NCBI GenBank assembly: GCA_039815375.1
Contig: JBCBZJ010000005.1
Location: 1 to 64,000 of the forward strand
DNA from: Verrucomicrobiota bacterium
Lineage (GTDB): Bacteria > Verrucomicrobiota > Verrucomicrobiia > Opitutales > Coraliomargaritaceae
Direction: 5' to 3'
DNA: 64,000 nucleotides
Numbering within the stretch: position 1 is the first letter of the stretch; each line of letters starts with the position of its first letter. The position numbers are program-made. This document shows, one piece after another, positions 32,298-33,586 of the stretch.

Positions 32298-33586
32298 GAT
32301 ATTCGTCGTCATGCCGACGGCGATACCGGTAGAGCCGTTCATCAAAAGGTTCGGAAGGGAGGCGGGGAGGACGGATGGCTCGGTCGTGCTTTCCTTGTAG
32401 TTGGGCACGAAGTCGACGGTGTCTTCGTCGATGTCCTTGAGCATGTCTTCGGCGATGTTCTCGAGCTTACACTCGGTGTAACGATAGGCAGCGGGGGAGT
32501 CGCCATCGATGGAGCCGAAGTTACCTTGCGGGATAATGAGCGGGTAGCGCATGACCCAGTTCTGCGCGAGGCGGACGAGGGTATCGTAAACGGAGGTATC
32601 CCCGTGCGGGTGATAGTTCTTGAGTACTTCCCCGACGACACCGGCGCACTTATCGAAGGGGCGGTTGTGAAGCAGGCCCTCACGCAGCATGGCGTAAAGG
32701 ATGCGGCGCTGAACCGGCTTGAAGCCATCGCGGGCGTCGGGGAGCGCACGGCTGACGATGACCGACATCGAGTAATCGATGTAAGCGGTCTGCATGATCT
32801 CGGTGATCGACGTGCCTTCTGCTCGCATGTGGTTAGGGGTGTTGGGATCTGTTGGTTGATCTGACATTATCTATTTCTTTGAAATGAGTGGCTCTGAATT
32901 TCTGAACTGGAGGTGACTGTTATAAGTGGTGCCAGGATGACGCTAAATTTAACAGGAGGAAGCAGAGAAAACAGAGGGTTTAGTGACGCTATCTCTAACA
33001 GGAGGAAGCAGTTAGAATTGAAGCATGGATTGATGCTATTTCTAACAGGAGGAAGCAGAGATAGCAGAGGAGTTCGTGATGAATACTGTGTGGTGATTTA
33101 TAAACAGGAGATAACAGAGAGAGCAGAGGCTAGGCTGACGCTGTTGCGGAAGAATGTTTATTGTAGAGTCGGCTCACGCCTTCGGTGAGGCGGGCGACGT
33201 TGAAGTTGATTAGAAGTCCGACCGGGAATCGGAGGAGTCGGAGGTAGGAGAGGGTTTGCGCTTTATGCACGGGAGTGACTGCTTCGACGGACTTAAGCTC
33301 GGTGAGGACTTTATCATCGACGATTAGATCACAGCGCAGGCTCTCCTCAAAGACGAGGTCCTTGTATGCGATATTGACCTGTGTCTGTTGCTCGACCTGA
33401 TGCCCGCGAAGTTGCAGTTCATGAATCAAGCAACGCTCATAAATCGATTCCAAGAGACCAGGCCCGAGCGCACGGTGCACTTCGATCGCCGCAGCAATCA
33501 CTTTGTGTGTGAGCTCAGGATAAATGTCCTGGTTGTTGGATACGTCGTCCATCTCTGTTCTCTCTGCTATCTCCTGTTAGAATTTA

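What a model noticed while it worked through the whole genome (the two positions that open the first line are those of the whole stretch)
32868..33583. GxxExxY (PDDEXK_3) genes are inverted-repeat-bounded insertion cassettes with ORF-less MITE derivatives
The three GxxExxY/PDDEXK_3 genes (g00836 C12:33130-33552, g01066 C15:49724-50122, g02012 C40:55697-56113) are each a 0.45-0.7-kb insertion bounded by 28-45-bp inverted repeats, placed within a few bases of the stop codon of a housekeeping gene (gyrB|gyrA spacer; a conserved gene pair on C15) or inside the tRNA array. Congeners have the empty sites. A ~180-bp dispersed repeat (about 12 loci, some tandem) shares the left end and inverted repeats of the g02012 cassette but has no ORF, i.e. 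a MITE of this element. The uncharacterised GxxExxY nuclease family is thus the likely mobility or homing nuclease of a small selfish element.
Evidence so far: gyrB-gyrA spacer 717 bp here, 37 bp in G018, about 100-220 bp in five other congeners; in G017 the same spacer holds a different small ORF (four-helix-bundle/IVS type) between its own inverted repeat arrays. C15 spacer 497 bp here, 13-55 bp in 6 of 8 congeners. Repeats: TCTAACAGGAGATAGCAGAGAGAACAGAG before g00836 and its near-complement after the stop; 36 of 45 nt inverted repeat with terminal hairpins around g02012; left 49 nt of that cassette 37/49 identical to the 180-bp repeat (score 50 vs max 29 in 300 shuffles). Repeat copies: C38:14561-15054, C12:144110-144482 and 145918-146336, C62:161845-162027, C4:24895-25087, C58:11540-11730 and 12514-12601, C28:582-772, C11:421099-421288, C33:449 [...]
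(Added by a program. Inside this text positions count along the whole contig: contig position 1 is position 1 of the stretch shown here. "Call 12" and the like, gene names such as g00115 and contig names such as C1 are that model's own, and its searches are not shown. The text may have been shortened before it was handed on; [...] marks where a part breaks off. The agent that wrote the report below was given it as the finding of a first reader that could run no searches.)

Follow-up and report, generated by a model that had tools for sequence, protein, structure and literature searches.

The report
Repeat-armed GxxExxY nuclease cassettes
A small nuclease gene of unknown function sits between mirror-image repeat arms at gene junctions here and in most relatives; gene-less copies of the arms exist, so it looks like an undescribed, slow-moving gene-plus-repeat element, though nothing yet shows the nuclease moving it.

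Summary
The cassettes are real. 77 of 86 testable GxxExxY loci carry an inverted repeat, against 7 of 194 other small ORFs. Arms are three 9-10-nt units, track the protein clade and usually follow an upstream stop codon. Catalytic residues are intact.

Three corrections. (1) The cassettes are old residents, not fresh insertions: synonymous divergence equals or exceeds that of flanking genes in 75 of 77 same-site pairs, there is no target-duplication signal, and metK|ahcY shows a full, deleted, doublet and short series. (2) The 180-bp repeat carries arms of the g02012 clade, but its borders are those of an ORF-less integron cassette, so integrase probably spread it. (3) Gene-less doublets of the gyrB|gyrA arm lie at window 18.2-23.1 kb and were missed.

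Mobility is indirect: two clades at one junction, one clade at two junctions, one nested cassette. Four-helix-bundle genes share the layout, which weakens the claim that the nuclease is the mover. Best model is a REPIN/RAYT-like system with a PD-(D/E)XK enzyme (0.45). Not found in print in 9 searches; this scan noted it before on other DNA (584 findings).

The parts
33584..36124 (-). gyrB, upstream host gene; its stop codon is 31 nt before the cassette ATG
   Evidence: Pfam DNA_gyraseB, Toprim, gyraseB_C; spacer
33553..33582 (-). Upstream arm (three ~9-nt units), ends at the ATG and covers the translation-initiation region
   Evidence: predicted to pair with the downstream arm in RNA
33130..33552 (-). 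g00836, GxxExxY / PDDEXK_3 nuclease-fold gene, 140 aa, with E35, D75, E85, K87, Q99, Y103
   Evidence: model pLDDT 89
33103..33128 (+). Downstream inverted arm, 1 nt after the stop codon
   Evidence: 92% complementary over 26 nt; score 42 vs shuffle max 26
33040..33069 (+). Extra inverted arm copy 2
   Evidence: (I2)
32994..33017 (+). Extra inverted arm copy 3, partial
   Evidence: I4
32945..32976 (+). Extra inverted arm copy 4, outermost
   Evidence: (I1)
32868..32884 (-). Native gyrA leader, shared with G017 whose spacer holds a four-helix-bundle gene instead
   Evidence: read by eye
30312..32867 (-). gyrA, downstream host gene
   Evidence: Pfam DNA_topoisoIV, gyraseA_C
18211..18292 (.). Gene-less inverted arm doublet of the g00836 type, ~30-nt spacer
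19552..19634 (.). Gene-less arm doublet
19711..19736 (+). Single decayed arm
19855..19923 (.). Decayed arm doublet
   Evidence: 83% to 18211-18282
20869..20950 (.). Gene-less arm doublet after an MNT/HepT-like gene pair
23026..23107 (.). Gene-less arm doublet inside a 400-bp segment duplicated from 18207-18604

Best explanation
A REPIN/RAYT-like gene-plus-repeat system built on a PD-(D/E)XK nuclease. SHOWN: the unit is arm, ORF, inverted arm; it is promoter-less in appearance and co-oriented just behind a host stop codon; arm sequence tracks protein clade; the ORF is under purifying selection and stays at a junction for long periods; it decays in place to an arm doublet and then to a short spacer; doublets also travel as passengers (integron cassette, duplicated segments). 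INFERRED: the protein binds the three-unit arms of its own clade and cuts at them, most readily where two arms lie close together in a doublet. Host recombination then repairs the break from a gene-bearing cassette through arm homology or microhomology, occasionally refilling a doublet, replacing another cassette or seeding a new junction, without target duplication. Read-through transcription expresses the gene; pairing of the two arms in the mRNA would cover its initiation region and keep expression low.
For: Inverted repeat at 77 of 86 loci vs 7 of 194 other small ORFs. Protein distance correlates with arm similarity in 2291 pairs not assigned to the same site (rho 0.29, permutation p 0.001; kin not independent) and arm type follows clades on the tree. 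Proteins 86-89% identical with the same arm sit at unrelated junctions (gatA|gatB vs pheS|pheT), while one junction holds proteins only 45-52% identical with different arms: specificity follows arm, not flank. D75 in 103 of 104, E/D85 in 101 of 104, K87 in 103 of 104; within-clade pN as low as 0.03-0.15 at saturated pS. The exact g00836 arm pattern occurs in 2 of 101 family genomes, both with the cognate gene. Deletion series at metK|ahcY; a GxxExxY-type doublet at gyrB|gyrA in G035. One cassette nested in another GxxExxY ORF (L170). Upstream same-strand stop in 45 of 66 loci vs 2 opposite, median 38 nt. 59 arm-like hits in this genome vs 2 with shuffled probes.
Against: No cleavage, binding or movement shown. 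No recent spread: ORF pS was below flank pS in only 2 of 77 same-site pairs. The one recent transfer seen (L025/L106, 91% over 745 nt, different genera) is bounded by a different terminal repeat with an apparent 5-bp duplication, so another enzyme probably moved it (by eye). Four-helix-bundle genes, with no nuclease fold, have the same layout with 6-7-mer arms. Arm-protein covariation also follows from simple co-inheritance. Doublets occur in near-complete genomes with no clade gene at the cut-off used (G014, G079) and G000 holds arm types without a cognate gene. The five window doublets lie in 70-400-bp duplicated segments, so they are not five independent events. A hydrolytic nuclease cannot itself join strands (own knowledge).
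Confidence: 0.45

Rival explanations
1. Passenger model: the arms are generic handles (operators, recombination points or substrates of another enzyme acting in trans) shared in principle with four-helix-bundle cassettes. The nuclease is cargo kept for host benefit (defence, repair) or by addiction, and does not move its gene.
For: Same layout for PF05635 genes at gyrB|gyrA and at a C11 junction; long residence under purifying selection; integron- and TIR-bounded carriers; mixed arm types near restriction and toxin-antitoxin-like genes on C40 and in the window.
Against: Arm type is specific to cargo family and clade; no third-party recombinase gene sits next to the cassettes (flanking ORFs).
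Confidence: 0.3
2. Free-standing homing endonuclease: each clade cuts the empty allele of a conserved gene junction and is copied in by homologous repair among conspecific strains; arms are incidental or regulatory.
For: Site-faithful clades with support 98-100 (metK|ahcY 5 rows, leuB|alaS 6, plsC|purM 8); junctions of conserved genes; no target duplication; precedent in phage T4 mobE (PMC2790892, search listing only).
Against: 86-89% identical proteins at unrelated junctions; the g02012 clade occupies many unrelated sites; no pS deficit; arms conserved at nearly all loci.
Confidence: 0.15
3. IVS-like RNA element: the arms act only as an RNA stem that RNase III excises from the polycistronic message, making the insertion neutral, as for 23S rRNA intervening sequences.
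For: Arms are predicted to pair in RNA in all three cassettes (18-32 expected long-range pairs); strict co-orientation; kinship of layout with IVP-protein cassettes (PMC4990558 abstract).
Against: Arm mismatches show no G.U bias on the sense strand (56 vs 74, p 0.14; 70 loci); a stem would not need a conserved three-unit period; it does not explain spread.
Confidence: 0.1

Closest known systems
REPIN/RAYT systems (REPtrons) and TIRtrons (10.1101/2021.07.10.451892 abstract and section 4; PMC3733652 passages)
   Same: One nuclease gene between inverted repeats; gene-less ~100-bp doublets with conserved arms and variable spacer; extragenic; gene stays at its site and is inherited largely vertically.
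   Different: PD-(D/E)XK fold instead of HUH-Y1; arms are three-unit 9-10-nt arrays, not GTAG-tagged short palindromes; up to 11 genes per genome; tens, not hundreds, of arm copies in this genome; cassettes do change site and replace each other.
ORF-less integron cassettes (PMC8876359 passages), for the 180-bp repeat only
   Same: Starts at G|TT after a variable attC, ends in a conserved attC-like site, lies among cassette arrays, no ORF.
   Different: Carries a GxxExxY-clade arm doublet; its own attC folds poorly in 4 of 6 copies tested; some copies are tandem or at sites with no upstream attC.
23S rRNA intervening sequences with S23p / four-helix-bundle ORF (PMC4990558 abstract)
   Same: Small ORF enclosed by arms that can pair in RNA; the same protein family occupies the same gyrB|gyrA junction in two relatives.
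   Different: mRNA junctions rather than rRNA helices; nuclease cargo; no G.U signature.
Free-standing homing endonucleases (T4 mobE; PMC2790892 search listing) and the PD-(D/E)XK homing enzyme I-Ssp6803I (recalled)
   Same: Nuclease gene between conserved genes, no target duplication.
   Different: Conserved inverted arms; close homologues at unrelated sites.
Cas4 / RecB-like / Hjc nucleases
   Same: Fold: SSO0001 Cas4 Z 7.2 (rmsd 4.0, 102 aligned), Hjc Z 6.5 (rmsd 4.4, 91 aligned); Foldseek probability 0.99 but E 6.5e-3 for SSO0001; QxxxY motif.
   Different: No match above Z 8, so only the fold class is indicated; no conserved cysteines among the conserved columns.

Membership tests
GxxExxY / PDDEXK_3 (TIGR04256, PF13366) | Profile score above cut-off and GxxExxY motif | tested here: met
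   126-145 bits vs cut-off 35 for all three genes; Pfam 140 vs 22 for g00836
PD-(D/E)XK nuclease | Fold and intact D...(D/E)xK triad | tested here: met
PD-(D/E)XK nuclease | Nuclease activity | not testable with these tools
   needs bench assay
REPtron / TIRtron (RAYT, TIRYT) | HUH-Y1 tyrosine transposase between the repeats | tested here: not met
   Enclosed genes are TIGR04256; the three Y1_Tnp matches of the genome lie on other contigs or far away
REPtron / TIRtron (RAYT, TIRYT) | Gene flanked by inverted repeats that also occur as gene-less doublets | tested here: met
REPtron / TIRtron (RAYT, TIRYT) | Long vertical residence at one extragenic site | tested here: met
   75 of 77 same-site pairs with ORF pS at or above flanks; replacements also occur
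IS with MITE derivatives | Target-site duplication | tested here: not met
   Longest direct repeat outside arms 3.36 vs 3.23 in mismatched pairs, p 0.16, 59 loci; old insertions could have lost it
IS with MITE derivatives | Recent near-identical gene-bearing copies within a genome | tested here: not met
   The three genes are 29-34% identical; no cassette-limited near-identical pair within one genome among 104 loci
Integron cassette (180-bp repeat) | Left border at G|TT of an upstream attC | tested here: met
   6 of 12 loci; 2 cut by contig ends, 1 5'-truncated, 3 begin GTTCAGG without a clear upstream hairpin; the two upstream sites folded are hairpins
Integron cassette (180-bp repeat) | Own attC with R''/L''/L'/R' boxes that folds | tested here: inconclusive
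   Boxes placed correctly by eye; long stem in C62:198.6k, partial in C28, not in 4 others; the C62 type recurs in the C33 array
Integron cassette (180-bp repeat) | Integron integrase in the genome | tested here: met
   3 matches over the TIGR02249 cut-off
Free-standing homing endonuclease | Cleaves the empty allele of its own site | not testable with these tools
   needs bench assay
Free-standing homing endonuclease | One clade, one site | tested here: inconclusive
   Site-faithful clades exist, but 86-89% identical proteins occupy two junctions
IVS (RNase III-excised) | Selection on an RNA stem and processing | tested here: inconclusive
   Stem predicted, no G.U bias; processing untested

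The most novel reading that the evidence does not exclude
GxxExxY proteins are the mobilising enzymes of a new class of minimal selfish elements that home into their own empty form: a ~125-residue restriction-fold nuclease recognises a three-unit arm, cuts gene-less arm doublets (perhaps as cruciforms) and is copied into them by host repair, so the doublet is both scar and landing pad. Arm and protein co-diversify into many orthogonal pairs, and four-helix-bundle cassettes are a parallel system or hitchhikers.
Probability: 0.3. Interest if true: 0.85.

Novelty: new variant of a known kind. Interest (0 to 1): 0.62.

Why it matters
PDDEXK_3 is listed as of unknown function with many transfers (PMC3424549, table row) and occurs in 30 of 41 genomes searched here. 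The arms name a concrete candidate substrate for each clade, so the family's function becomes a one-step biochemical test. If the nuclease drives spread, this is repeat-associated mobility by a chemistry other than HUH, DDE or tyrosine/serine recombinases, and a source of small nucleases with natural cognate sites. It would also explain part of the short-period repeat content of operon junctions in these bacteria.

Tried and rejected
Contigs of 4 public runs laid on window 17000-36500: no listed joint skips the cassette, and one contig of the possible source run spans it; 58 joints were not shown. No RNA holder listed. Homodimer prediction gave no verdict. Foldseek had no hit at E<=0.001 and VIA none at Z>=8; I-Ssp6803I was not among the listed rows, which excludes nothing. 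Target-duplication test null. G.U asymmetry null. A first regex test of clade arms was too strict and its hairpin loop length wrong; redone by alignment. My attC scanner found 156 candidate sites and arrays on C2, C4, C30 and C33; its printed list of clustered sites did not include the repeat's own sites, in line with their weak folding. The alignment query for genome contigs had no conserved stretch; the single protein gave 9 loci. Rejected: the 180-bp repeat as an attC site itself (it lies between attC-like sites); the repeat as a direct deletion product of g02012 (flanks differ, better arm match elsewhere). Literature: 9 searches. 'GxxExxY' is in 3 papers, 2 listed; I read the passage in one (PMC8934634, a passing mention). 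PF13366/PDDEXK_3 is in 2 papers; I read the table row in PMC3424549. No listing described the cassette; subscription journals are largely outside this library and I read no supplements.

Full report
OBSERVATION. Window 33130-33552(-) encodes a 140-aa PDDEXK_3/GxxExxY protein between gyrB and gyrA. One arm runs from just after the gyrB stop to the ATG (33553-33582). An inverted arm follows the stop by 1 nt, and three more copies follow. The two other genes on C15 and C40 exist as stated and are 29-34% identical to it and to each other. Of 38 gyrB loci examined, 37 have gyrA adjacent, and none of the 36 others holds a GxxExxY gene there. Two hold a PF05635 four-helix-bundle ORF, about ten hold gene-less 6-8-mer arrays (by eye), and G035 holds a gene-less pair of GxxExxY-type arms. 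The closest relatives found (L150, L162, G059) have the same cassette at the same junction.

FAMILY-WIDE ANATOMY. PF13366 matched 124 places in 30 of 41 genomes. I examined 104 loci; 15 lacked the motif in the chosen frame and 3 had short flanks. Of the remaining 86, 77 had an inverted repeat above 99% of 200 shuffles. In a control of 196 small ORFs of this genome 9 passed, two of them the GxxExxY genes themselves. By eye the arms are three units of 9-10 nt with a purine-C core, and the upstream arm usually ends near the ATG. A same-strand gene ends within 120 nt upstream in 45 of 66 loci, an opposite-strand one in 2, neither in 19; median distance 38 nt. Similar arms flank homologues in Planctomycetota and Chryseobacterium records. 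Host gene names other than gyrA, gyrB and metK are my recognition of flanking translations, not a tool result.

PROTEIN. E35, Y38, D75, E/D85, K87, Q99 and Y103 are nearly invariant. The model (pLDDT 89) has a restriction-like fold; best matches are BpuSI (Z 7.3), Cas4 SSO0001 (Z 7.2) and Hjc (Z 6.5), none above Z 8. Within site clades pN is mostly 0.03-0.15, up to 0.29 for the deepest pairs, at saturated pS; against L162 dN is 0.065 and dS 0.45. The enzyme looks intact and selected.

HISTORY. On an 89-row tree (135 columns, many forks open) arm type follows clade (rho 0.29, p 0.001 over 69 loci). Several clades are faithful to one junction. Yet gatA|gatB and metK|ahcY each hold two distant types (45-52% identity), and 86-89% identical proteins sit at gatA|gatB and pheS|pheT. 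L170 shows one cassette inside a truncated second GxxExxY ORF with nested arms. So cassettes have moved as arm-bounded units. They move rarely: ORF pS was below flank pS in only 2 of 77 same-site pairs (codon bias in host genes lowers their pS, so this is a rough test). At metK|ahcY, among 26 genomes, five have a full cassette, G001 an internal deletion with both arms, G012 a gene-less doublet, G010 a decayed one, and the rest short spacers. Short sites in relatives may therefore be losses. No target duplication signal was found in 59 loci. The only recent transfer (L025/L106, 91% over 745 nt) has a different terminal repeat and an apparent 5-bp duplication at its borders (by eye), which points to hitchhiking.

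GENE-LESS DERIVATIVES. The g00836 arm has 15 clear copies in the genome among 17 hits, against 0-2 for 8 shuffled probes. Four intact doublets and one decayed doublet lie at window 18.2-23.1 kb around toxin-antitoxin-like genes, inside 70-400-bp duplicated segments. The exact pattern occurs in 2 of 101 family genomes, both with the gene. A census with 100 arm probes gave 59 hits against 2 for shuffled probes, including types with no cognate gene here.

THE 180-BP REPEAT. Its core is an arm doublet with a short flanking hairpin. This matches the flanks of g02012-clade genes: 16 of 21 clade loci exceed the best of 75 non-clade loci, and the hairpin is in 14 of 21 versus 0 of 75. Its outer borders tell another story. 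On the other strand the conserved sequence begins at G|TTCAG(G/A)A right after a variable attC-like hairpin in 6 of 12 loci, and reaches an RYYYAAC-type box in 9 of 12; in five it continues through a shared ~105-nt site to the next G|T. The genome has three integron integrases and attC arrays. In relatives about 10 of 14 doublet-length hits also adjoin attC-like sites, while others stand free or beside clade genes (by eye). Recombination between G and TT of the core site and ORF-less cassettes are described in PMC8876359 (passages). The repeat's own attC folds poorly in 4 of 6 copies, so it may be decayed. I put the integron-cassette reading at about 0.75. DNA hits occur in 39 of 101 genomes and the clade gene in 25, with 20 shared (my count); near-complete G014 and G079 have doublets but no clade gene at the cut-off used.

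MECHANISM. Specificity follows the arm rather than the flank, so I favour an arm-recognising nuclease whose breaks are repaired by the host, with doublets as both scars and landing pads (0.45). Binding, cutting and repair are inferred. The main rival is that the arms are generic handles and the nuclease is cargo (0.3): this genome's own four-helix-bundle gene sits at an operon junction between inverted 7-mer arrays. Junction-specific homing (0.15) and an IVS-like RNA role (0.1; stem predicted; no G.U bias) are less likely.

COMPARISON AND NOVELTY. It works like REPIN/RAYT and TIRtron systems (10.1101/2021.07.10.451892 abstract and section 4; PMC3733652 passages) but fails membership on the enzyme. 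It fails IS/MITE tests on target duplication and recent copies. Nine paper searches found no description; PMC3424549 lists PDDEXK_3 as unknown. Also seen: PMC8934634 (passage), PMC4990558 (abstract), PMC11270868 (passages, not relevant). This scan has noted the cassette in 584 findings on at least 501 genomes; those notes agree but are not independent support. I had written the RAYT/REPIN-like reading before seeing them; the TIRtron lead came from them.

Noticed in passing
window 25342-28397: Three partial copies of the gyrA 3' end (25440-25695, 27359-27464, 28307-28397; 72-77% identity) downstream of gyrA, suggesting repeated integration at the gyrA 3' end.
   Followed up: no
window 17893-23418: Accretion island of 60-400-bp duplicated segments enclosing an RHH-antitoxin pair, an MNT/HepT-like pair and a 579-aa Lys-rich ORF with no NCBIfam match.
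   Followed up: partly
window 18077-18155: GTAG-type palindromic doublet with many dispersed copies (C11, C14, C33, C54, C59); three Y1_Tnp matches exist in the genome.
   Followed up: no
window 16106-16233: Another dispersed ~100-130-bp repeat family with about 15 loci in the genome.
   Followed up: no
L061:1400-1900 (G000:C11 ~295.4 kb): Four-helix-bundle (PF05635) gene between inverted 7-mer arrays at a junction that looks like pdhA|pdhB (name recalled).
   Followed up: partly
gyrB|gyrA spacers of G001-G004, G006, G010, G014, G019, G020, G025: Gene-less arrays of 6-, 7- and 8-mers of several kinds, possibly scars of other armed cassettes; the junction is a hotspot.
   Followed up: no
L025, L106 (G012:C42, G019:C93): A ~750-bp unit with its own terminal inverted repeat and apparent 5-bp duplication carries a GxxExxY gene between genera at 91% identity; no transposase inside.
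   Followed up: partly
L170:1500-2200: GxxExxY cassette nested inside a truncated second GxxExxY gene, in what looks like an rml operon junction (name recalled).
   Followed up: partly
G000:C40 54.6-56.5 kb (L219): Array of at least 11 tRNA genes, some atypical, shared with G017, G058 and G065; the cassette site holds an unrelated palindromic insert in G065.
   Followed up: partly
G000 C2, C4, C30, C33: Large integron cassette arrays and three integron integrases near contig ends (C10, C24, C51).
   Followed up: partly
G000:C40 41.6-52.8 kb: Arms of at least three GxxExxY types, partly nested, around an island with a methyltransferase-like and a Vsr-like ORF (names by eye) upstream of the tRNA array.
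   Followed up: no
L039 (G032 gyrB|gyrA spacer): 581-nt nested palindromic insert with terminal inverted repeats, unrelated to the arms.
   Followed up: no
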